Of a DNA stretch of 64,000 bases, positions 1-10,249 are shown one piece after another; the stretch's first letter is position 1; the number at the start of each line of letters is the position of its first letter. The notes under the pieces were generated by a model that ran no database searches, was not told where the DNA came from, and saw only the letters and a list, made by a program, of their open reading frames with translations. The DNA is taken from the IMG/VR virus record IMGVR_UViG_2693429820_000003; one strand, written 5' to 3'. Origin of the DNA: a virus. Its lineage: Duplodnaviria; Caudoviricetes. The translations under genes and the position numbers were made by a program.

Positions 1-375
1 GCCGCTCTGCTGCTCAGCCCAGTTCTTAGGCAGACCATGCTCGAGCAGCCAGTAGATGCGCTTGGCAGCTCCCTGTGGAGTATTGTCTAGGTAACTCCAC
101 CCTGGTCCGAAGGCCCAGTCCCACTCGTCCGAGTAGTGGGCGAGGTCGAACTGATTGCGTGAATAGCTCTGCCACGAGTAGCAATCCGCGCTGGGCTCAA
201 TACCCGCTGCGGGGCCATGACCAAGAGCACACGCAATTGCGCCGCAATCGTGCTTCGCCGGGCTGTATTCGTGATCCCGGTAAGCGCTAACGCAGTACCA
301 TTTCATGTCAAACTCGTACTCCACACGGCCGGTGATGAGATAGTCTGCGAGTTTTCTGAGGTTGTCTCTATTCAT
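1..375 (-). CDS. Hypothetical protein, family B paralog 2 (3' end runs off the window)
   Basis: Not in the ORF track; read by hand from ATG 375: MNRDNLRKLADYL...CGAIACALGHGPAAGIEP...DNTPQGAAKRIYWLLEHGLPKNW, clearly homologous to 368-763. Confidence 0.85.
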   Translation of the reverse strand, partial: MNRDNLRKLADYLITGRVEYEFDMKWYCVSAYRDHEYSPAKHDCGAIACALGHGPAAGIEPSADCYSWQSYSRNQFDLAHYSDEWDWAFGPGWSYLDNTPQGAAKRIYWLLEHGLPKNWAEQQSG

Positions 376-763
376 AGCAGAGAGGCTCCGTACGCATCAT
401 CTGTTTGTGCCAGTTCGACGGTAGTCCCTCGTCGAGGAGCCAATAGATGCGCCTCGCGGCCCCCTCCGGCGTGTTATCCGATCTTTCCCAGCTACCGGAG
501 AAGAGCCACATACCCTCGTCGCTGAATAACGAGAGGCCGAAATGGCGTCTCACATAGGTCGTCCAGGACTCATCCTTCTTGATAGGTTCGATCCCGGCGG
601 CGGGTCCATGCCCAGCTGCGCAGGCGACGGTACCGCACTCATGGACCAACGGGGCGAGATCATCGCCGTACTCGTCGCGGCAGAAGGACCCCATATCGAA
701 ACGGCACGCGGTGGTGCCCGTTGCGAGGTAGTCGGCCAGCTTCTTGAGGTTTTCACGATGCAT
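368..763 (-). CDS. Hypothetical protein, family B paralog 1
   Basis: MHRENLKKLADYL...CGTVACAAGHGPAAGIEP...DNTPEGAARRIYWLLDEGLPSNW; ATG 763 overlaps the end of the upstream gene. Confidence 0.85.
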   Translation of the reverse strand: MHRENLKKLADYLATGTTACRFDMGSFCRDEYGDDLAPLVHECGTVACAAGHGPAAGIEPIKKDESWTTYVRRHFGLSLFSDEGMWLFSGSWERSDNTPEGAARRIYWLLDEGLPSNWHKQMMRTEPLCYE

Positions 764-1106
764 TGGCGATAGCCTTATCCAAGAGTGCGAGTACTTCCCC
801 GTGTTTACGGTTGTCTGCATCGTTGAACGCGATGACGATATCCGCTGCCACACCGTTGTTGTGGAGGTCTTTGGCCTCGGGTTCGATCAGCTTTGCGAGC
901 GTCGACACCACTGCTGCCCGTGACCAGTGCGGTAGTTCGACCGCTCGGAGGGCGCCGAAGAGACACCAGCAGACCGCAGCTCCGCTCTCCGGAAGGAGCC
1001 CTGACATTCCGTCAGCGTTACGGGCGAGGCTATGTTGCGTCCACCGATCCGGGGTCGCCAGGTGGTTGCGGACAGCTTTGAGATTTTCAAGAAGCTGATT
1101 TGACAT
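753..1106 (-). CDS. DUF6197-like array paralog A9
   Basis: Motifs PDRWTQ, AVCWCLFGA, FNDADNRKHGEVLALLDKAIA. Confidence 0.85.
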   Translation of the reverse strand: MSNQLLENLKAVRNHLATPDRWTQHSLARNADGMSGLLPESGAAVCWCLFGALRAVELPHWSRAAVVSTLAKLIEPEAKDLHNNGVAADIVIAFNDADNRKHGEVLALLDKAIANAS

Positions 1107-1464
1107 TGGCGATGGCCTCATCGAGTACGTTCAGGACGTCGTCGTGAGTGGTTCTCCGGTCGTCATTGAAGGTCGGGATGTCGCTGTGCGTGCGGGTCAC
1201 GACGATCTGGATCGCGCCCTCCAACGCTTTCCAGCGAGGGTTTTTCTCGCTGGTGTCGTATGTCAGTTCATCGAGTTGGTTGGGAAACTCACCCTCGGCC
1301 ACCACCTTATTCATGGCACCGAGCATGCAGTAGCAGGTGGCATACGTCGACCAGGGCTCAATCTGGGATTGCTCCTCGTCCATAGCATAGTAGTCCCGTG
1401 TCCACTTCGCGGGCGGCGTCAGCAGGGTGCGGACAGCCTTCAGATCTTCAAGAAGCTGTGACAT
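1087..1464 (-). CDS. DUF6197-like array paralog A8
   Basis: PAKWTR, ATCYCMLGA, FNDDRRTTHDDVLNVLDEAIA. Confidence 0.85.
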   Translation of the reverse strand: MSQLLEDLKAVRTLLTPPAKWTRDYYAMDEEQSQIEPWSTYATCYCMLGAMNKVVAEGEFPNQLDELTYDTSEKNPRWKALEGAIQIVVTRTHSDIPTFNDDRRTTHDDVLNVLDEAIANVKSAS

Positions 1465-1588
1465 GCTGAAACACCCTCTTCCCTGAGTTGCGATAGGTCT
1501 TGCCCTTGGCAAATGTGGGCTTGACCCGCGTGATGACAGACGTTTTCTTCGCGCGACGGAGGGCCGCGCGTTTGACTTGGCGTGACAT
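1448..1588 (-). CDS. Small very basic peptide (46 aa)
   Basis: Hand-read MSRQVKRAALRRAKKTSVITRVKPTFAKGKTYRNSGKRVFQHVTAS; fills the gap between array genes. Confidence 0.5.
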   Translation of the reverse strand: MSRQVKRAALRRAKKTSVITRVKPTFAKGKTYRNSGKRVFQHVTAS

Positions 1589-1601
1589 GTGGGAAGTCTC
1601 T

Positions 1602-1922
1602 CTACTTAGAAAACATGATGGCGAGGTCGATGACGCTCATGACGTCGCGATGCGTGGTGTTGGGGTGGTCATGCCAATGAAGAAGGCTATCGTGGCGCCA
1701 ATGGACGTGCCCCTGGAGAGCGTTCCATAACGCTCGCCCACGTGGTTTGTCCCCGTCGGCAATCGCGTGCACCGCAAGTGGTACGCAATACCTGCCGGCT
1801 TCGGTGCGATAGGAAAGCGGAATACCATTGATGTCGAAGTGGATCATGTTCTTGGTCCACTTTTCTGGCAAGTCGACGAGGCTGCGCAGGGTGTGGAGAT
1901 CAGCGAGGAGCTGACTATTCAC
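1602..1922 (-). CDS. DUF6197-like array paralog A7 (most divergent)
   Basis: PEKWTK, RYCVPLA, WHDHPNTTHRDVMSVIDLAI; GTG start overlapping the upstream stop. Confidence 0.8.
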   Translation of the reverse strand: MNSQLLADLHTLRSLVDLPEKWTKNMIHFDINGIPLSYRTEAGRYCVPLAVHAIADGDKPRGRALWNALQGHVHWRHDSLLHWHDHPNTTHRDVMSVIDLAIMFSK

Positions 1923-2196
1923 CCCTGCCAAAATAATCCTCGATCGCCTGCTGGACCTCAACATAGAACGGGCCGGTCCAGTCTTTCACCCACTGCGGCG
2001 CGTTCGGATGGTTTCGTAAGTCGTCAGTTGCATACTGGTCATCGACCAGTGCGAGGGCAGCATACTCCCCCATTGCAACAATCTGGTCAGTGACATCCCA
2101 GGTCGTAGGTCCATAGGGATCGACTTCGACCGCGTAGTCGCGTACCCACGCCTGGGGGACGAAACGGGCGACGATGCGGTGGGTATCCTCAGGCAT
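1915..2196 (-). CDS. Hypothetical protein inserted in the array
   Basis: MPEDTHRIVARFVPQAWVRDYAVEVD...WVKDWTGPFYVEV; ATGCCTGA coupling with the upstream gene. Confidence 0.75.
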   Translation of the reverse strand: MPEDTHRIVARFVPQAWVRDYAVEVDPYGPTTWDVTDQIVAMGEYAALALVDDQYATDDLRNHPNAPQWVKDWTGPFYVEVQQAIEDYFGRGE

Positions 2197-2494
2197 TGGC
2201 GATGGCCTTATCCAAGAGTGCAAGCACGTCGGAGTGCCTGGTGTTGGGGTGGTCGTTGAAATTAGCAATGCTCCGACCGTCCCCGATGGCGTGGTAGAGG
2301 GCAGAATTGACCTCATTTTCCCGATCGAAGGGCAGAAGCTTTCGGCCAGCACCGACGAGACACCAGCACGTTGCGCTCTCATTCTGAGGGTGGACATGAA
2401 GGCGATGCTTGTTCATCGCCAACCAACCCTGCGTCCACCGGTTCGGGTCCGAGAGCAGGTCGCGGACAGCGGTGAGGTCCTGTTTGAGGGTCAT
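2189..2494 (-). CDS. DUF6197-like array paralog A6
   Basis: PNRWTQG, ATCWCLVGA, FNDHPNTRHSDVLALLDKAIA. Confidence 0.87.
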   Translation of the reverse strand: MTLKQDLTAVRDLLSDPNRWTQGWLAMNKHRLHVHPQNESATCWCLVGAGRKLLPFDRENEVNSALYHAIGDGRSIANFNDHPNTRHSDVLALLDKAIANA

Positions 2495-2811
2495 GGGTTG
2501 GCCTCGATCACTTTATCAAGGAAGGCCATGACACCCGGGTGAGTACCGTTGTCGTTAAGGGTGAGGTACGAACCTGGTTCTGTGGCAGCCGCCGTAAGAG
2601 CCTTGTCCACGGCGTGGAAGCGGGACCAGTGTTGTCTGGCGTGGAGCTTGGCGTTCGCTCCGTTCAGGCACCAACACGTAGCTGCGGGATGGTTAAATGT
2701 TACGCCACAACCCTCGTGGTCGCGAGCATTCTCGCCCTTGGTCCATTTGGCGGGATCGGAGAGGAGTGTGCGGATTGCTCGGAGGTCAGTGTTGAGTTGG
2801 GATGCGGACAT
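2491..2811 (-). CDS. DUF6197-like array paralog A5
   Basis: PAKWTKG, ATCWCLNGA, LNDNGTHPGVMAFLDKVI; RBS AAGGAG. Confidence 0.87.
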   Translation of the reverse strand: MSASQLNTDLRAIRTLLSDPAKWTKGENARDHEGCGVTFNHPAATCWCLNGANAKLHARQHWSRFHAVDKALTAAATEPGSYLTLNDNGTHPGVMAFLDKVIEANP

Positions 2812-2862
2812 GCGTTATCGCTCCTTCCCTGGGCGGGAGAACGGACGTGATTGTGGGTGGTG

Positions 2863-3183
2863 CTAGGGCGCGGCGGCTATCGCTTGGTCGAGCAGGTTCA
2901 GGACGTCGTCGTGCCTGGTCGAACCGTTGTCGTTGAAGGTAATGAAGCCCGTCCGCCCTGGTACCGCTGCATTCAACGCGCTATCAAGAGCATCGTACCG
3001 TCTGGTGTAGCGGGCATCCGTGATCTTAATCATTGCACCATTCAGGCACCAACAGGTGGCGTTGTCGTCATCGGGGAGTGCCTGCCGACCGAGTGCGTCA
3101 CGGGCATTGAAGTTTTTCGTCCATCTGTCAGGCGTATCGAGGAGCTGGCGGATAGCCTGAAGATCAGCCTTGAGCTGAGACAT
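2863..3183 (-). CDS. DUF6197-like array paralog A4
   Basis: PDRWTK, ATCWCLNGA, FNDNGSTRHDDVLNLLDQAIA. Confidence 0.87.
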   Translation of the reverse strand: MSQLKADLQAIRQLLDTPDRWTKNFNARDALGRQALPDDDNATCWCLNGAMIKITDARYTRRYDALDSALNAAVPGRTGFITFNDNGSTRHDDVLNLLDQAIAAAP

Positions 3184-3484
3184 GTGCGATGGTCCTGTCC
3201 AAGAGGTTGAGGACGTCGTGGTGATTTGTGTTGGGGTCGTCGTTGAAGTCAGCGATGCTCTTGTCATAGGTGGGGATATGAAACCGCACAGCGTTCTTCA
3301 CATCGCGTTGTTCTTCAGGAGATGCAACGGAGTTGATCGCGCCCAACATGCAGTAGCAGGCGGCATTGCTGCTTTCGGCAAACGTAGGGTTTCCGCTCTC
3401 ATCTTTAGCAAGATACCCCTTCGTCCACTTCGTCGGGTCCGCGAGGAGTGCGCGGACCTTGGTGAGGTTCTCGAGCAGGGTCAT
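3164..3484 (-). CDS. DUF6197-like array paralog A3
   Basis: PTKWTKG, AACYCMLGA, FNDDPNTNHHDVLNLLDRTIA. Confidence 0.87.
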   Translation of the reverse strand: MTLLENLTKVRALLADPTKWTKGYLAKDESGNPTFAESSNAACYCMLGAINSVASPEEQRDVKNAVRFHIPTYDKSIADFNDDPNTNHHDVLNLLDRTIAHVSAQG

Positions 3485-3816
3485 TGGGCTGCCTCGATTG
3501 CTTTGTTGAGCAATGACATGACGTCATCGTGGGTGGTGTTCGGGTCGTCGTTGAAGCCGACATAACCCCCATGGTTCGTAGGCACCGACCGGGTCAGGAT
3601 GACTCTGATTGCCGCGTAACGGCCCTCATCATCATCATCTAACAGACCTACCTTGGCCGCAGCCCCATCCAGGCACCAGCACACTGCCGTGGGGTGATCC
3701 GAAGTGCAGATGTCGCCATCGCGATCCCTCGCAAAGGCATCCTGTGTCCACGCTGAGGGCGTGGACAGCAGGTCTCGCATGGCGATGAGGTCAGTTTTGA
3801 GTTGGGACTGGGACAT
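3481..3816 (-). CDS. DUF6197-like array paralog A2
   Basis: PSAWTQ, AVCWCLDGA, FNDDPNTTHDDVMSLLNKAI. Confidence 0.87.
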   Translation of the reverse strand: MSQSQLKTDLIAMRDLLSTPSAWTQDAFARDRDGDICTSDHPTAVCWCLDGAAAKVGLLDDDDEGRYAAIRVILTRSVPTNHGGYVGFNDDPNTTHDDVMSLLNKAIEAAQ

Positions 3817-4177
3817 TGTCGAGCACCTGAGGGTTGAGGCCGTACTGGGCTGCGATGTTGCGCATTTCCTGGAGCCACGCGGTGAGCGGGCCACCTTTTG
3901 TTTCGGGCATATGGTTGTCGTGCGCGTCTTGGATCGCGGCGAGAAACTCCACGTGGTTGTTGAAACGGACCAGCTCGAAGGCCGGGATCGCGCTCCAAGC
4001 GCTGTGTCCTTCCATCTCCCTCACGTACTCGTCGTCAGTTATGAGGATGCCGAGCGCACACTTGGTACCGTTGGGGCCGCGATATCGACAATCGTTGTTG
4101 TGATTGATTGACCGAACACCCTGAGCGACGAGACCCGTGGCCACAGTGTCGAAGATTTCCTGCTTGGTGAGAGACAT
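3791..4177 (-). CDS. Phage hypothetical protein (CxYR...KCALG motif)
   Basis: RBS AAGGAGG; MSLTKQEIFDTVATGLVAQG...CRYRGPNGTKCALG...IQDAHD. Confidence 0.8.
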   Translation of the reverse strand: MSLTKQEIFDTVATGLVAQGVRSINHNNDCRYRGPNGTKCALGILITDDEYVREMEGHSAWSAIPAFELVRFNNHVEFLAAIQDAHDNHMPETKGGPLTAWLQEMRNIAAQYGLNPQVLDNVPVPTQN

Positions 4178-4235
4178 GCGTCCTCCTTCACGCTGTGGTT
4201 CAGCGTGTTGTAGTGGGCTTGGGTTGTGGGAATGG

Positions 4236-4436
4236 TTAGGGAAGGTGGCGCATCACCAGCCAGTAGAGACTGTTGTAGTCATCACCTGTTGGTGCTTGCT
4301 CCATGTTATTCAGGCGGGTGTCGTACACCGCGACACGGGTCCGAATGTCTTGCATGGTTTGGTGCAGTTTAAGGTACTGACGCGCGATATAACCCGCGAG
4401 CAGTACCCCTGGGAGAAGGCCGAGAAGGAACCCCAT
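4236..4436 (-). CDS. Small membrane-anchored protein
   Basis: N-terminal hydrophobic helix GFLLGLLPGVLLAGYIA; TGATG coupling. Confidence 0.7.
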   Translation of the reverse strand: MGFLLGLLPGVLLAGYIARQYLKLHQTMQDIRTRVAVYDTRLNNMEQAPTGDDYNSLYWLVMRHLP

Positions 4437-4738
4437 CAGGGTGTGGCCGCGATGGTGCGGTCGATCAGGTCAAGGACCATGGGGTGAGTGGTGTTGGGGT
4501 CGTCGTTGAAGACGGAAATCCTATGGTCACCGAGTTGTGCTCTCAGTGCGAGAACGCATGCAGTGTATGCAGGCCCGTCGGGGTTTGTGCGGCCAATTGC
4601 ACCATACAGGCACCAGGACTTCGCCAGGGTGGGATCATAGGTTTGATTACCATCGATATCCCGTGCACCTGCGTTCTGGGTCCAGTTCTCTGGAGGCGTC
4701 AGGAGAGTGCGGACAGCCTGAAGGTGAGCTTTGAGCAT
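4436..4738 (-). CDS. DUF6197-like array paralog A1
   Basis: PENWTQ, AKSWCLYGA, FNDDPNTTHPMVLDLIDRTIA. Confidence 0.87.
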   Translation of the reverse strand: MLKAHLQAVRTLLTPPENWTQNAGARDIDGNQTYDPTLAKSWCLYGAIGRTNPDGPAYTACVLALRAQLGDHRISVFNDDPNTTHPMVLDLIDRTIAATP

Positions 4739-4793
4739 GACGGTGCATTCCCTAGGTGAGAGGGTTGTGGTGGGTGTGAAATGTGGGAGTGAG

Positions 4794-5303
4794 TTAGTAG
4801 GCTTCGGTGGCCACGTACTGTCGCTGCTGCGCAGGTGGGAGACCCTTACGGTTCCTAGCCTGCTCACGAAGCTCACGTGCTAACCGTCGAGATTCAGGCT
4901 CTCTAGGGTGTTCACCTCTCATTACCTCAATGAAGTGCAGAGGGTTGATGCATAGCGAATTGGTGCACTCACCGTTGGTCTGCAGTGGGAGCAGACTCTC
5001 AACCGGTATGCCGTTGTGACGCGCGAATAGCTCGCGTCTGGGGTTCACCCTCTTTCGGTTGAGGGTAGCAACAGGTCGAAGGCTCTCACGTTTGGCACGA
5101 GGGGCCCTGATCGGCTGGTCAGGTCTACCACCGTTGTACGGGGTGTATTTGTAGACTTTGTCAGGGTTGGTTGTGGCACCAGTCCAGACCCAGCAGCGGG
5201 TTTTAGGTGGGTTGTTCGGGTACCCCGTAGGGGTTTTGATGTGCTTACGCCAGAGGTGCAGTTTGATCGCCATGGGCATTATTTCACTAGTTGACTGAAA
5301 CAA
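4794..5303 (-). CDS. HNH/His-Cys box homing-endonuclease-like protein, possibly degenerate
   Basis: CWVWTGA and CTNSLCINPLH motifs typical of phage HNH zinc-binding loop nucleases; start uncertain. Confidence 0.6.
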   Translation of the reverse strand: MFQSTSEIMPMAIKLHLWRKHIKTPTGYPNNPPKTRCWVWTGATTNPDKVYKYTPYNGGRPDQPIRAPRAKRESLRPVATLNRKRVNPRRELFARHNGIPVESLLPLQTNGECTNSLCINPLHFIEVMRGEHPREPESRRLARELREQARNRKGLPPAQQRQYVATEAY

Positions 5304-5329
5304 TTACAAAAATTGAAAAACTCTTGTTC

Positions 5330-5560
5330 CACTCACTGTCCTGAAGGCTATTCAATTCTCTAACCTACTCCTATGGACTCCTTTTGGACTGGCGGACTCT
5401 TTGGGGAATGTAGTGGGATAACTGATTTAGAAATATCCTATTAATATCAATAAGATAAAATAATAATAAAGTAATAAACAGAATATATAAACAGTGGGGG
5501 CTTAAAAAGAAAAAAGAAAGTAATAGGGATATAAGGGTTTTACTGCCCCGCAAAAAATCT
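5330..5560. other. AT-rich, strand-asymmetric (A-rich on +) non-coding tract
   Basis: gaaatatcctattaatatcaataagataaaataataataaagtaataaacagaatatataa in an otherwise GC-rich genome. Confidence 0.8.
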
Positions 5561-5746
5561 CTACCTGCCGATGGCTTTCCGGGCGGTGCTGGCGATATCG
5601 GTTTCCAGCTGATGTAAAGTAAAATAGTGATCAAAGCTCAGAGCTGGCAGTTTCACGCGAGCTTCTCCGTTGCTCAGCGTGTAGGTGCCATCAGGGTGGC
5701 GAGTGAGCACAATGACGCGATCCTGGTAGATCACCTTGTCGTCCAT
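5561..5746 (-). CDS. Small hypothetical early protein (61 aa)
   Basis: GGAGG RBS then MDDKVIYQDRVIVLTRHPDGTYTLSNG; preceded by the conserved hairpin. Confidence 0.7.
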   Translation of the reverse strand: MDDKVIYQDRVIVLTRHPDGTYTLSNGEARVKLPALSFDHYFTLHQLETDIASTARKAIGR

Positions 5747-5758
5747 GAAAGCCTCCGT

Positions 5759-5774
5759 TTTCCCGTTCGGGAAA
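5759..5774 (-). promoter_or_regulatory. Palindrome/hairpin TTTCCCGAACGGGAAA, copy 1
   Basis: Identical 14-bp core also at 6362 and 7335, each directly 5' of an RBS. Confidence 0.75.
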
Positions 5775-5851
5775 CTGAAATCCGCGCAAGCGGAAACGTC
5801 CAGGCTGGAGATCCAACCCGGAGTAAAGCCCGCGCGCGAGATTTGAAAAGA

Positions 5852-5868
5852 TGTTGATATTATCAACA
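5852..5868. promoter_or_regulatory. Operator-like palindrome TGTTGATA-T-TATCAACA
   Basis: Perfect 8-bp inverted repeat with 1-bp spacer in an AT-rich patch upstream of 5746. Confidence 0.5.
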
Positions 5869-6001
5869 CCGATTTTGTTTGCTGCGCCCGCCAAGCGGGA
5901 GACAATTCTCTCCCGAACCTCGCCCCGACCCCGGCCCACAAAAACGAACAACTGTTACGCATCCGAAATGATATTCACCGCCGGCCACGGTCACGGCCCC
6001 G

Positions 6002-7729: not shown

Positions 7730-10249
7730 CTACTTCGACGGCTTCGTCGGCTTCGTCGGATCGACAATCGTGAGGAACCTGTACGCTGAGTCCCCCGACC
7801 CGGCTCTGGAAGTCTTGCCCAGACCGTCCAACACTTCCTTGAAGCCGAACTCCTTCTGCAACTGGCGCATACGATCGATAAAGGTCTCGTATGCCGCAGG
7901 CTGCACATTCGCCTCGCTGACGCAGAACAAGCGGTAGGCGAGATAAACCTGCCGGGCGGGTGTGGTAGCCTCGCTCGATGCCCCGTTCTCGCCAACCCCC
8001 AGCTTCAGGTGTCCCCGATGATGAGAGTTGGCGAGGAAAAAACGGACAGGGTTCGTCCGATTTTCAACGCGTTTACATAGCTCCAAGCTGCTGGCGGGCA
8101 CGCAATACTCCGCGCGATCCTTCAATGTGATCAGCCCCTGCACTGCCCATGCCGCGATGGCCTCCCGTTCCTGCTCCAAGATCAGCTGATCGATGTTGAC
8201 GATGCGATCTTTCGTCTCGATGGAGTTGGAGAACTCCAAGAACAACCAGCGACGGGTGAAGCCTGCCGATGAGTCATCGGTACGAGGCAGAACGTTGGAG
8301 GCGAACCAGTGAGCAGCGATCGGATTGAACTTGTAGAGGGGTTGGTACTTACGTTGAGCCTGAATAGTGGAACCTTCCACCACCAGCTTGAAGATATCAC
8401 CCGAGATGAGGTCCCGCTCCGATAGCTCACCTGCAACATTGAGCACCTTGTCGGTCAGCTCCGCGACCGAGAACTGGTTGTTCCAGAACTTCGGAGCCAC
8501 CGCTGCTGCACAACCATCAGGCATCAGGCCCTGCATAATGCGTAGAATACGTGATTTACCCGTATCAGCTGGGCCATAGAGACAGAACACGCGGAAGTAC
8601 TGTGGCGCCACACCAAACAGGGTGGCTGCAAAAGCCTCCTGCAGAGCCTCAACCTTGTCGGCAAAGTCAGGATCGGTGCCCCAATAACGCACCAGAAGCT
8701 CCGAAAACATCGTCGCTTTGCCCGCCAACTCCGGCTGGTAGGGGTAGGGAAGCACATAAGTGCAGCCAAAGTCCTTGTTATGGGGCTGTAACGTCAGATC
8801 TTCGGTCAGATAGCCATTGACGAAGTTTATGCCCCGGATATCGCGTTGTTTGAGGTCAGCACGCGTCAACGTCGCCATAACCTTCACGACAGCGCGATAG
8901 TCGTTGTCCTTCTTGCATGCCGGGAAGTTGCCATACTCCGTGGCCACGATCTTCTGCAGGTCAGCGGCCTCCATTGGCACCCAATGCGCGCCTTGCCATT
9001 GGTAAAACATCTCATTGGAGAAGCGTAGCTCCCCTGTCCGCTCGACATTGTCGATGACAGCACGCGCGATCTCGGTCTGATCGTTGCCCGCAATGTCGCC
9101 CTTCTGAAATTCGCGAATTTGCCGAAGGATGCTTGCGGCGGTGAGGTTGTTCGCCGTCGCACCCTGGAGCACTTTCACAATATGCTGCTGCTCGAGCGGT
9201 GTGATGCCTGGATTACCGGCCACGCGCGCGCACATAATCCCAACCAACTCGGTCATCTTCGGGTTGGTGTGGTCGAGACCGTCTGACTGGATCTTCGCAT
9301 GGAAGTCGTCGATGATCTCCTGATACGAGAAACGCCGGTTTTCACTGGTGATGTCGTCGAGGCCCAGCTCTTTCAGCTGGTCTACGGTCATACCCTCATC
9401 CCAACCAGCTGGAAGCGTCAGCTTTTTCGGGCCAAAAAGGTCCTTCCGCAGCCATTCGACGATCTTTTCCGTCATCTTTGCAGGCGGGAGTTCGTCTCCC
9501 GGAACCTTTTCGACACGGTCCTGCACCCACTGAAAACCGACGTCCAGACCCTCTTTCAGGGTGATATTGCCCTTGATGATGTCGGAAACGATGCCACCGG
9601 CGAAGCGGACGAGCGCATTATCGCGCCCACCAGCCGGAACCCAGTTCACAAAGCCGACGCGCGCAGCACCTGAAGCCACCTCGTAGCCGTTCTGACGCAG
9701 CGCATCGCGGGCCAGCTCGCCAAACGACGTCGGCAAGGTGCCAATCTGGCCTAGCACGTCCAGCAGATCGCAGTTGGCGGTGTAGGGCGCCATCAATCCC
9801 GGATGGATCGAGGGCGGCAACAACACCTGAGCACCCGTCGACAGGAAGTCGAGGACGTTGGTGCCGTCCGCGAGCTTCACGTGGAAGGTGTTCTGGCCCT
9901 GATACTTGAACAGCTTGACGTAGCCCTTGCGCCCACGACGCAGCCACGGCGATTTCGGTGTGATGCTGTCGATAGCATTCAGTATGCCCGGTTCGTCACT
10001 ATCGACGTCGAGCGCAACAAGGCCAGAAGCCTGCCCCAGAACCAGGCCCATGTTGTGGTCCGGAAACATCTGCAGCCAACCGGCTTGCTCGGCATCCCCA
10101 ACGGGCACGGCCGAGTAACGCTGCCAGGTAGAAATCGCAGGACGCTTGCCGGCCGCCTTGTCGGCCCCGGACGGGTCGGGTCGTGTGATCGGGATAACCG
10201 ATAGTCCAGCAGCCCAATAGCCTGGCGCGTTCTCACTAAAAATACCCAT
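7730..10249 (-). CDS. Primase-polymerase (Prim-Pol) fused to D5-like SF3 helicase
   Basis: N-terminal GKRPA...NMGLVLG...LVALDVD and VLLPPSIHP; Walker A GPADTGKS; SF3 motif C FASNVLP. Confidence 0.9.
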   Translation of the reverse strand: MGIFSENAPGYWAAGLSVIPITRPDPSGADKAAGKRPAISTWQRYSAVPVGDAEQAGWLQMFPDHNMGLVLGQASGLVALDVDSDEPGILNAIDSITPKSPWLRRGRKGYVKLFKYQGQNTFHVKLADGTNVLDFLSTGAQVLLPPSIHPGLMAPYTANCDLLDVLGQIGTLPTSFGELARDALRQNGYEVASGAARVGFVNWVPAGGRDNALVRFAGGIVSDIIKGNITLKEGLDVGFQWVQDRVEKVPGDELPPAKMTEKIVEWLRKDLFGPKKLTLPAGWDEGMTVDQLKELGLDDITSENRRFSYQEIIDDFHAKIQSDGLDHTNPKMTELVGIMCARVAGNPGITPLEQQHIVKVLQGATANNLTAASILRQIREFQKGDIAGNDQTEIARAVIDNVERTGELRFSNEMFYQWQGAHWVPMEAADLQKIVATEYGNFPACKKDNDYRAVVKVMATLTRADLKQRDIRGINFVNGYLTEDLTLQPHNKDFGCTYVLPYPYQPELAGKATMFSELLVRYWGTDPDFADKVEALQEAFAATLFGVAPQYFRVFCLYGPADTGKSRILRIMQGLMPDGCAAAVAPKFWNNQFSVAELTDKVLNVAGELSERDLISGDIFKLVVEGSTIQAQRKYQPLYKFNPIAAHWFASNVLPRTDDSSAGFTRRWLFLEFSNSIETKDRIVNIDQLILEQEREAIAAWAVQGLITLKDRAEYCVPASSLELCKRVENRTNPVRFFLANSHHRGHLKLGVGENGASSEATTPARQVYLAYRLFCVSEANVQPAAYETFIDRMRQLQKEFGFKEVLDGLGKTSRAGSGDSAYRFLTIVDPTKPTKPSK

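What the first reader, a model, noticed from the sequence alone, without database searches (positions are those of the whole stretch)
753..4738. Tandem array of nine divergent paralogs of one small Cys/His protein family (DUF6197-like)
Seen: nine genes (753, 1087, 1602, 2189, 2491, 2863, 3164, 3481, 4436) share the scaffold L..L.AVR.LL..P..WT[QKR]...A...G...A.C[WY]C[LM].GA...FND.P.T.H.DVL.LLD.AI, while the two segments between these blocks differ in sequence and length. All reading frames are intact, so the copies look maintained rather than decaying. Knowledge: the WT..., CL.GA and [WF]ND motifs resemble DUF6197, which I know only as uncharacterised. Inference: a diversified repertoire with a conserved Cys/Asp/His (possibly metal-binding) core and variable specificity loops, expressed early, for example a set of anti-defence or host-takeover binders or ligand sponges. 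Nine copies in 4 kb of a compact phage genome is unusual, and this is my best candidate for a new system.
Basis: partly seen in the sequence, partly recalled or inferred. Interest (0 to 1): 0.9.

Follow-up and report, generated by a model that had tools for sequence, protein, structure and literature searches.

The report
Nine-gene DUF6197 array in prophage
A prophage carries nine intact, very different copies of one small phage protein of unknown function in a row; such arrays recur in other phages, so this is the largest example seen here of a common but unstudied habit, not a new system.

Summary
Nine intact minus-strand genes (753-4738) are paralogs of Pfam DUF6197. Eight of nine pass the curated cut-off; the ninth is 48% identical to a sister copy. 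They lie in a tightly packed operon, with 9 of 14 junctions overlapping, in the non-structural arm of a roughly 85-90 kb siphovirus-type prophage in a 6.4 Mb chromosome.

The family is large (24,706 cluster representatives), mostly viral and unnamed. Tandem copies are typical of it:
- 13 of 31 distinct IMG/VR loci hold two to six copies.
- Achromobacter phage Motura has four in tandem.
- 21 of the 150 best relatives are multi-domain fusions.

Nine is the most I saw. Two other small multi-copy families interleaved here recur beside DUF6197 genes in unrelated viral contigs.

Function is not shown. My best guess (about 0.4) is a repertoire of host- or defence-targeting accessory proteins: a fixed scaffold with a conserved Trp-Thr/Cys/Asn-Asp/His cluster and two hypervariable segments.

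The parts
4436..4738 (-). DUF6197 copy I (100 aa), first copy in the operon
   Evidence: Pfam PF19698 at 57.0 bits. Its stop overlaps the start of the next gene by 1 nt.
3481..3816 (-). DUF6197 copy H (111 aa)
   Evidence: Pfam at 62.4 bits. pI 4.4. Overlaps copy G by 4 nt.
3164..3484 (-). DUF6197 copy G (106 aa)
   Evidence: Pfam at 63.6 bits. The ESM Atlas holds a confident model (pTM 0.85), and its nearest clusters are all DUF6197.
2863..3183 (-). DUF6197 copy F (106 aa)
   Evidence: Pfam at 49.8 bits. Its start lies 20 nt inside the end of copy G.
2491..2811 (-). DUF6197 copy E (106 aa), the divergent member (LND in place of FND)
   Evidence: No Pfam hit at E<=1. BLASTP gives 45.7-47.7% identity to F and H. 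Own-profile E=3e-41.
2189..2494 (-). DUF6197 copy D (101 aa)
   Evidence: Pfam at 58.7 bits. Overlaps copy E by 4 nt.
1602..1922 (-). DUF6197 copy C (106 aa from GTG 1922; the ORF's ATG is at 1964). The most divergent copy: first Cys lost, WHD in place of FND.
   Evidence: Pfam at 38.2 bits over its C-terminal two thirds. The start is inferred from an 8-nt overlap with the upstream gene.
1087..1464 (-). DUF6197 copy B (125 aa), with the longest second variable segment (48 aa)
   Evidence: Pfam at 65.1 bits. pI 4.6. Segment lengths.
753..1106 (-). DUF6197 copy A (117 aa), last copy
   Evidence: Pfam at 63.8 bits. Its last 25 nt are 24/25 identical to those of copy D.
3791..4177 (-). Interleaved small gene of a second family ('F3', 128 aa, phrog_17693)
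   Evidence: PHROG E=1e-30. A 30%-identical paralog lies at L001 18978-19364. The family recurs beside DUF6197 genes in IMG/VR loci.
368..763 (-). Small gene of a third family ('F2a', 131 aa), directly downstream of copy A
   Evidence: 54% identical to the next gene. No Pfam, PHROG or NCBIfam hit. The family recurs beside DUF6197 genes in IMG/VR loci.
1..375 (-). 'F2b', paralog of F2a, which runs off the left edge of the window
1915..2196 (-). Interleaved acidic 93-aa ORF with no family
4236..4436 (-). Interleaved 66-aa ORF with a hydrophobic N-terminus
   Evidence: Translation. No family.
4794..5303 (-). Basic 169-aa ORF at the head of the array, endonuclease-like
   Evidence: phrog_1872 'endonuclease' at E=1.8e-8. 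No Pfam hit.
5304..5560 (-). Low-GC intergenic stretch with one promoter-like site (5491..5463). A possible start of the array's transcription unit; inference only.
   Evidence: Promoter-like sites there are not more frequent than in shuffles, so this is a lead and not evidence. GC.

Best explanation
**What it is (shown; about 0.97).** Nine intact single-domain genes of the phage-borne family DUF6197 (PF19698, phrog_762) lie head to tail in one tightly packed minus-strand operon. The copies are deeply diverged. The operon sits in the non-structural arm of a roughly 85-90 kb siphovirus-type prophage.

**How it arose (largely shown).** The family duplicates in tandem again and again, both as genes and as domains within one protein. 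Here the copies are as far from each other as from relatives in other metagenomes, so the array is old or assembled, not a recent burst.

**How it most likely works (inferred; about 0.4).** Each copy is a small, probably helical scaffold held by a conserved cluster: P..W-T, A...C..G-A and F-N-D.P.T-T-H.D-V. This scaffold carries two hypervariable segments, one of 18-20 aa and one of 29-48 aa. The set then acts as a repertoire of accessory proteins made during lytic growth. Each copy would bind a different version of a host target or defence protein. This resembles anti-CRISPR loci or the polyimmunity arrays of toxin systems. The frequent two-domain fusions suggest that the domains work in pairs.
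For: **Identity and array**
- Family membership, alignment, pairwise matches and the absence of a tenth copy.
- Operon packing: 9 of 14 junctions overlap by 1-26 nt, and the largest gap is 137 nt.

**Prophage context**
- Terminase, portal, tape measure, J-like tail protein, DNA polymerase, helicase and ligase are present, as is a primase.
- The island has GC 0.55-0.58 against 0.62-0.64 in the flanks.
- One contig of a run that may be the source bridges host and phage DNA.

**Viral and widespread**
- 24,706 representatives at E<=1e-3.
- The nearest Atlas clusters are 85-87% viral among members with a known taxon.
- Only 3 of 400 other genomes of the host's class carry it, with 1-2 matches each. 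This count includes the unpublished genome G300.
- No genome other than the window's own passes the cut-off among 61 genomes searched (the window's own and 60 relatives).

**Recurrent tandem duplication**
- Phage Motura has four copies in tandem plus one elsewhere.
- 13 of 31 distinct IMG/VR loci have at least 2 copies, 6 of 31 have at least 4, and the maximum is 6.
- 21 of the 150 best relatives carry 2 or more domains.
- In 16 two-domain proteins the two halves are closer to each other (median 40% identity) than to halves of other proteins (31-33%). That points to independent duplications.

**Other support**
- The window copies do not form one clade (9 label changes against a shuffled mean of 8.8; quick tree).
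- Conserved and variable layout.
- Conflict context: the relative P0027 is a 1191-aa multidomain protein with DUF3846, two DUF6197 domains and DUF3560. That is the architecture Iyer et al. 2017 call polyvalent proteins (PMC5512222; abstract, section 29 and find passages read).
- Arrays elsewhere sit among small unknown genes and replication or nucleotide-metabolism genes.
Against: - No experiment or named homolog supports any function. All 43 listed relatives are unnamed or 'hypothetical', and there is nothing in NCBIfam or PADLOC.
- The only paper found merely notes the domain (PMC10586128, passage read).
- The strongly conserved polar cluster (Thr, Cys, Asn-Asp, His, Asp) fits a ligand, metal or catalytic site at least as well as a pure protein binder.
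- Expression timing is unknown. No RNA run is held, and promoter and terminator matches do not exceed shuffles.
- No diverged orthologous array was held, so diversifying selection on the variable segments is untested.
- The closest phages by terminase (Seuss, JWF, KB12-38, Lumi) have no DUF6197 in 4 of 4 searched. The array is therefore dispensable for this phage type, which fits an accessory role but says nothing about what that role is.
- The tree is poorly resolved: 78 of 119 inner branches are open.
Confidence: 0.4

Rival explanations
1. Small ligand- or metal-binding module, or a small enzyme. On this reading the conserved Cys/Asn-Asp/His cluster is the working site. It might act as a sponge or hydrolase for a nucleotide signal or metabolite. 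The paralogs would differ in ligand, and pairs of domains would form the pocket.
For: - Polar residues are nearly invariant across 123 sequences: W20, D82 and A41 are invariant, and T21, C45, N81, H88 and D96 are at least 90% conserved.
- The copies are not strongly acidic DNA mimics: net charge is 0 to -9 and pI 4.4-7.3.
- Two-domain fusions are frequent, as would be expected if a site forms between two domains.
- Arrays elsewhere lie near nucleotide-metabolism genes: HD domain, dGTP diphosphohydrolase N-terminal domain and cREC_REC, each in 1 of 131 neighbour ORFs.
Against: - No sequence match to any solved structure. The best hit is E=0.15, a spectrin repeat, which is chance level.
- No named non-DUF6197 cluster resembles it in the Atlas.
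- Copy C has lost the first Cys and the Gly-Ala pair and has WHD for FND. Copy E has LND and a shortened loop. A strict active site would tolerate this poorly.
- Nine diverged copies are more typical of binders than of one chemistry.
Confidence: 0.25
2. The array benefits the lysogen. It would be expressed from the prophage and protect the host, as a polyimmunity-like set against incoming toxins or as exclusion of other phages.
For: - The element is integrated in a chromosome.
- Tandem arrays of diverged small immunity genes are a known pattern in polymorphic toxin systems (recalled, from no call).
Against: - Arrays also occur in large phages with no sign of lysogeny in what I saw: Motura at 221 kb and the T4-like pf16.
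- The array lies inside a long co-directional operon with primase-side genes, not at a prophage end.
- No Imm or SUKH family hit for any copy at E<=1.
Confidence: 0.12
3. Duplication-prone cargo without diversified function. The copies would persist through dosage, or through recombination between the conserved 5' and 3' gene ends, and the variable segments would drift neutrally.
For: - Conserved gene ends give 60-84% identical DNA blocks in register across copies.
- The last 25 nt of copies A and D are 24/25 identical.
- Independent duplications occur in many lineages.
Against: - All nine frames are intact at 23-48% identity, and each keeps the family's core residues.
- No DUF6197 pseudogene fragment was found in the prophage region or in the genome.
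- Genes are translationally coupled.
Confidence: 0.1
4. A core replication or morphogenesis accessory of this phage type, that is, a housekeeping role.
For: The array lies downstream of the primase and in the same arm as other non-structural genes.
Against: - None of the 4 phages with the closest terminases has any DUF6197.
- Copy number ranges from 1 to 9 among loci.
- No neighbour family recurs.
Confidence: 0.05

Closest known systems
Pfam DUF6197 (PF19698) / PHROG 762, uncharacterised
   Same: 8 of 9 copies score above the curated cut-off over nearly the whole 111-position model. They have the same length class and the same W-T, C..GA and FND...H.DV motifs.
   Different: One copy (E) is below detection by the Pfam model. 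Nine separate genes in one array is more than in any other genome or locus I examined.
Tandem DUF6197 arrays in other phages: Achromobacter phage Motura (4 + 1), the identical IMG/VR loci L012-L014 (6), L027 (5)
   Same: Head-to-tail, same-strand, closely spaced or overlapping diverged paralogs among small unknown genes.
   Different: These arrays are shorter and sit in unrelated phages. The phages nearest to this prophage by terminase have none.
Two-domain DUF6197 proteins, including those noted for Gordonia cluster A15 phages (PMC10586128, passage read)
   Same: They show the same tandem duplication of the same domain. In the window, adjacent genes overlap by 4-20 nt, which is one step from fusion.
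   Different: Here all nine are separate ORFs. The two halves of the fusion proteins are the products of independent duplications.
Polyvalent proteins of phages and conjugative elements (Iyer et al. 2017, PMC5512222)
   Same: One relative (P0027) joins two DUF6197 domains to DUF3846, DUF3560 and further segments through repeated short linkers. That paper also reports many copies of one domain in a single protein (12 ART domains; passage read).
   Different: The window genes are single-domain and are not a multidomain polypeptide. The terms 'DUF', 'DUF3846' and 'DUF3560' do not occur in the paper's main text, and I did not search it for 'DUF6197' by name. Its supplementary domain lists could not be opened.
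Anti-CRISPR loci and polyimmunity (SUKH/Imm) arrays (recalled, from no call)
   Same: This is a working analogy only: clusters of small, fast-diverging proteins, each aimed at a different variant of an opponent.
   Different: There is no sequence relationship. No Imm or SUKH Pfam hit at E<=1, and no anti-defence library was available to test.

Membership tests
DUF6197 (PF19698) | Score above Pfam's gathering cut-off (24.6 bits) over most of the 111-position model | tested here: met
   8 of 9 copies score 38.2-65.1 bits. Copy E gives no hit at E<=1. The six-frame genome search gives the same 8.
DUF6197 (PF19698) | Copy E belongs through its sisters | tested here: met
   BLASTP gives 47.7% identity to H (E=4e-25) and 45.7% to F (E=8e-26). 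E aligns in register and shares all 13 invariant columns.
DUF6197 (PF19698) | Family core residues (W, T, second Cys, G-A, N-D, H, D, I) are kept | tested here: met
   Invariant in the nine: L10, L14, R18, P24, W27, T28, A49, C53, A57, D101, H107, V110, I118. Copy C has L-A for G-A and WHD for FND, and copy E has LND.
PHROG 762 | HMM match | tested here: met
   8 of 9 at E from 7.5e-16 to 1.9e-4. Copy E gives none.
Polyvalent proteins (Iyer et al. 2017) | Two or more disparate domains in one polypeptide | tested here: not met
   Each window gene is one domain of 100-125 aa, separated from the next by a stop codon. Only the distant relative P0027 has such an architecture.
Known defence-system proteins (PADLOC-DB 2.0) | HMM match | tested here: not met
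   0 families for 3 of the 9 copies and for 7 neighbouring ORFs at E<=0.01. The other 6 copies were not scanned.
Immunity families of polymorphic toxin systems (Imm/SUKH in Pfam) | HMM match | tested here: not met
   No such family for any of the 9 copies at E<=1.
One superfamily with the interleaved F2 and F3 families | Profile-profile similarity | tested here: inconclusive
   hhalign probabilities are 1-3%, with E=0.026 over 98 columns for DUF6197 against F2 in the expected register. The F2 and F3 alignments are shallow (11 sequences each). The F2 profile gives weak hits to DUF6197 proteins in a consistent register (E 0.03-1).
Any solved fold | Sequence or structure match to the PDB | not testable with these tools
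   Profile searches of PDB sequences gave only chance-level hits.

The most novel reading that the evidence does not exclude
DUF6197 and the two interleaved families (F2 with a CGT..C..GH/W motif; F3, phrog_17693) may form a recurrent, expandable cassette module of phage genomes. In this reading, three co-travelling families of small Cys-bearing proteins multiply in tandem and act together as a new class of counter-defence repertoire. They might be paired-domain sponges or inhibitors, each tuned to a different host immune signal or effector. This prophage would carry the largest set seen so far: 9 + 3 + 2 genes.
Probability: 0.18. Interest if true: 0.8.

Novelty: new member of a known kind. 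Interest (0 to 1): 0.5.

Why it matters
DUF6197 is one of the larger phage protein families without a function. It has 24,706 representatives at 50% identity, and only one passing mention was found in the literature searched.

This locus shows the family's habit most clearly. It multiplies in tandem, keeps every copy intact, holds a small polar core fixed, and lets two segments run free. That pattern is typical of proteins in an arms race. The nine natural variants in one inducible element give a ready panel for binding, structure and deletion experiments.

The repeated company of two other multi-copy families widens the question from one DUF to a possible module. If the set proves to be counter-defence, it would add a widespread family to that catalogue. 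If it proves to be a ligand-binding or enzymatic domain, it would name a large block of phage dark matter.

Tried and rejected

**Searches that found nothing**
- Megablast of window 1-6000 against phages.
- The search for related loci with copy G in viral contigs.
- The search for related loci with the primase in viral and genome contigs.
- The search for homologous proteins with copy G found only itself.
- The search for homologous proteins with A2 and 'longer' lengths found none, which is weak evidence by the tool's own note.
- PDB sequence searches gave only chance-level spectrin hits.
- The Atlas search leaving out DUF6197 gave no usable hit.
- NCBIfam and PADLOC.
- Rfam and tRNAs.
- Literature terms PF19698 and phrog_762. 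The DUF3560/DUF3846 papers were seen as a listing only and were not informative.
- No RNA holder was listed.

**Ideas tested and dropped**
- Homology of DUF6197 with F2 or F3: hhalign probability 1-3%.
- An F2-like domain in P0027, which I saw by eye: not found by HMM.
- Alternating N-type and C-type copies along the array, which would imply fixed heterodimer pairs: no such types exist.
- A recurrent functional neighbour: each Pfam family occurs in only 1 of 131 neighbour ORFs. Of the 209 same-strand ORFs around 12 arrays, 78 outside 300-2000 nt were dropped before the scan.
- A fused cellular form in G215: the 507-aa open frame has no other domain.
- att repeats of 16 nt or more at the GC borders: none, so the prophage ends are known only roughly.
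- dN/dS: run X2 shows no base substitutions against the window (only six 1-nt indels in low-depth contigs), and loci L012-L014 are identical in the array (99.99-100% overall).
- DNA-level recent duplication: only codon-level 60-84% blocks.

**Caveats on calls I used**
- The careful tree did not finish, so the quick tree was used.
- Supplementary files of PMC5512222 (domain lists) could not be seen and may bear on whether this domain was already given an LPD number.
- The count for the host's class includes the unpublished genome G300.

Full report
**1. What is there**

The low 5 kb of the window holds a run of small minus-strand ORFs. With their most likely starts they are:

| Copy | Coordinates |
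|---|---|
| I | 4436-4738 |
| H | 3481-3816 |
| G | 3164-3484 |
| F | 2863-3183 |
| E | 2491-2811 |
| D | 2189-2494 |
| C | 1602-1922 |
| B | 1087-1464 |
| A | 753-1106 |

The start of C (GTG 1922) and the internal ATG starts of A, B, F, H and I are my inference. I chose them from the overlap pattern and from the shared N-terminus MSQL...

Family membership rests on several tests:
- Pfam's DUF6197 model matches 8 of 9 above its curated cut-off. Copy E gives nothing at E<=1. PHROG 762 behaves the same way.
- Copy E is nevertheless a plain member. It is 46-48% identical to F and H by BLASTP and shares every invariant column.
- 34 of 36 pairs match at E<1e-4.
- A profile of the nine finds no tenth copy among 663 ORFs of the region.
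- Neither the Pfam model nor a profile of 123 family members finds any other copy in the 6.4 Mb genome.

**2. Anatomy of the copies**

Across the nine there are 13 invariant columns. Across 123 family members, W20, A41 and D82 (numbering of copy G) are invariant. L7, L13, P17, T21, A26, C45, G48, A49, N81, H88, D96 and I99 are at least 90% conserved.

The layout runs in this order:
- an N-terminal L..L.A.R.LL..P..WT block;
- a first variable segment of nearly fixed length (18-20 aa);
- A...C..GA, in which only the second Cys of CxC is invariant;
- a second variable segment of 29-48 aa;
- the block F-N-D.P.T-T-H.D-V-L.LLD.AI.

Copy C is the most eroded, with its first Cys lost, L-A for G-A and WHD for FND. 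Copy E has LND and a shorter loop. pI ranges from 4.4 to 7.3 and net charge from 0 to -9. That is not the extreme acidity of DNA mimics (a comparison from general knowledge). The ESM Atlas holds a confident model of copy G (pTM 0.85, pLDDT 0.88), and its nearest neighbours by features and by structure are all DUF6197 clusters. No coordinates were available to me.

**3. Context**

The window lies in a 5.9 Mb contig of a 6.4 Mb genome. The region is a low-GC island (0.55-0.58 against 0.62-0.64) running from roughly 14-21 kb left of the window to about 68 kb.

It encodes the following:
- terminase, portal, tape-measure protein and a J-like tail protein on the plus strand;
- DNA polymerase, helicase, SbcC-like protein and ligase on the minus strand;
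- a primase-polymerase/D5-type protein at 7730-10249.

The closest terminase in GenBank phages is that of Caulobacter phage Seuss at 42% identity. Next come other roughly 80 kb phages. I found no att repeat and no tRNA.

A contig from a run that may be the source bridges host and island. A second run from another study holds 0.91 of the sampled words, and one of its contigs spans 1805-4373 without a base difference. The array is therefore not an assembly artefact of one data set.

The array is part of a co-directional string of at least 15 genes. Nine of the 14 junctions overlap by 1-26 nt, and the largest gap is 137 nt. This string comprises:
- an endonuclease-like ORF at its head (phrog_1872);
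- a 66-aa hydrophobic ORF;
- a 93-aa acidic ORF;
- members of two further paralog families, described in section 5.

A low-GC intergenic stretch with one promoter-like site lies upstream (5304-5560), and a strong terminator-like hairpin follows the primase. Such sites are no more frequent than in shuffles, however, so the transcription unit is only inferred. No RNA run is held.

**4. The family at large**

The profile of the nine finds 24,706 representatives at E<=1e-3 and 7,347 at E<=1e-10.

The family is rare in cellular genomes of the host's lineage:
- No genome other than the window's own passes the cut-off among the 61 searched, that is, the window's own and 60 relatives.
- In the class, 3 of 400 other genomes carry it, with 1-2 matches each. 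This count includes the unpublished genome G300.

All 43 relatives listed with their sources are unnamed or 'hypothetical'. The only paper found is a genome announcement. It notes the domain downstream of DNA polymerase I in Gordonia cluster A15 phages and mentions a tandem two-domain form (PMC10586128, passage read).

Tandem multiplication is the family's signature:
- Achromobacter phage Motura has four adjacent genes plus a fifth elsewhere.
- Pseudomonas phage pf16 has two places, apparently the adjacent gp10 and gp11.
- I fetched 33 IMG/VR loci with a motif-rich sub-alignment. Three are identical in the array and 99.99-100% identical overall, leaving 31 distinct. Of these, 13 hold at least two domains within 10 kb, 6 hold at least four, and the maximum is six.
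- 21 of the 150 best representatives hold two or more domains, including three-domain, four-domain and seven-to-nine-domain proteins.
- In 16 two-domain proteins the halves are closer to each other (median 40% identity) than to halves of other proteins (31-33%). Duplication has therefore happened independently many times.

The four phages closest to this prophage by terminase have no copy.

In a quick, poorly resolved tree the nine window copies are scattered among outside sequences. Only E, F and H fall into one weak group. The array is therefore old, or assembled from diverged pieces, and is not a recent burst. Nine copies is the largest number I saw, but it sits on a continuum.

**5. A second finding: two companion families**

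Family F2 has these members:
- window 368-763;
- window 1-375, running off the left edge;
- a third member at L001 12179-12598.

Family F3 (phrog_17693) has window 3791-4177 and L001 18978-19364.

Both are also multi-copy in this prophage and occur nowhere else in the genome.

I built profiles from this prophage's own members only. They hit ORFs beside DUF6197 genes in unrelated IMG/VR loci at E<1e-4:
- F2 in L029 (three ORFs, one with two domains), L023, L007 and L028;
- F3 in L007, L015 (two), the identical L012-L014 (four) and L037.

That is 7 of 31 distinct loci with at least one companion family. By tblastn the same families occur in only 10 (F2) and 30 (F3) of 50,697 phage records. pf16 carries both DUF6197 and F3, and F3 is often multi-copy. 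I did not run a proper background for the HMM rates, so the enrichment is indicative only.

The three families share a rough plan: an N-terminal helix-like block, a Cys-bearing C..G block and a conserved C-terminal block. Profile-profile comparison does not establish homology, however (probability 1-3%).

**6. How it most likely works**

Shown:
- the family and the array;
- the intactness of all copies;
- the tight operon;
- the viral bias;
- recurrent independent duplication;
- accessory status, since close phage types lack it;
- a relative embedded in a polyvalent-type multidomain protein (P0027: DUF3846, two DUF6197 domains, DUF3560 and repeated short linkers).

Iyer et al. 2017 argue that such proteins act in the first phase of invasion against host defences, and that their uncharacterised domains also occur solo (PMC5512222; abstract, section 29 and passages read).

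From this I infer, at about 0.4, a repertoire of accessory host-interaction or counter-defence proteins built on one scaffold with two specificity segments. The abundance of two-domain forms suggests they probably act in pairs.

The main rival, at about 0.25, is that the conserved polar cluster is itself the working site of a ligand-, metal- or substrate-binding module. The two readings are not exclusive, because a sponge would satisfy both. Smaller rivals are:
- a lysogen-benefit or polyimmunity role;
- neutral, duplication-prone cargo;
- a housekeeping role, which the absence from related phages argues against.

**7. What could not be done**

- No diverged orthologous array was held, so selection on the variable segments is untested.
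- Neighbour genes gave no recurring annotated family.

**8. Verdict**

The feature is real and clear-cut. It is the largest array I saw of a catalogued but uncharacterised, mostly viral family whose tandem multiplication is common. It is a new member of a known kind, not a new system.

Its value is as a natural nine-variant panel, with two companion families, for finding out what DUF6197 does. Interest 0.5.

Noticed in passing
window 1-375 and 368-763 (minus strand); L001 12179-12598: A second paralog family ('F2', about 130 aa, with CGT..C..GH/W and TP..AA.RI..LL motifs) has no Pfam, PHROG or NCBIfam hit. It has three members in this prophage and recurs beside DUF6197 genes in IMG/VR loci L029 (x3, one two-domain ORF), L023, L007 and L028.
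   Followed up: partly
window 3791-4177 (minus strand); L001 18978-19364: A third paralog family ('F3', phrog_17693) is interleaved in the array. It is multi-copy in other phages (pf16 and Xoo-sp13 have 4 places each by tblastn). It lies beside DUF6197 genes in L007, L015, L012-L014 and L037.
   Followed up: partly
protein P0027 (relative): This 1191-aa protein holds DUF3846, two DUF6197 domains, DUF3560 and several unassigned segments, joined by a repeated PIAGGSGEE-like linker. It looks like a polyvalent or processed polyprotein.
   Followed up: partly
protein P0005 (relative): This 990-aa protein consists of seven to nine near-identical DUF6197-like repeats. It may be a real repeat protein or an assembly artefact.
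   Followed up: no
window 753-777 and 2189-2213 (minus strand): The last 25 nt of copies A and D, including the overlapping ATG of the next gene, are 24/25 identical, although different genes follow them (F2a and the 93-aa ORF). This may be a recombination junction.
   Followed up: no
window 4794-5303 (minus strand): A basic (pI 10.5) 169-aa ORF with a PHROG 'endonuclease' match sits at the head of the array, just below a low-GC intergenic region.
   Followed up: no
whole island, about window -21000/-14000 to +68000: The prophage's closest terminases belong to roughly 80 kb phages (Seuss, JWF, KB12-38, Lumi and Acinetobacter phages) at 37-42% identity. I found no close relative of its primase in IMG/VR or in 185,579 species genomes, and no att repeat or tRNA at the GC borders.
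   Followed up: partly
run X2: A second public run, from another study and under another organism label, holds this phage region with no base substitutions (only six 1-nt indels, in contigs of low depth).
   Followed up: partly
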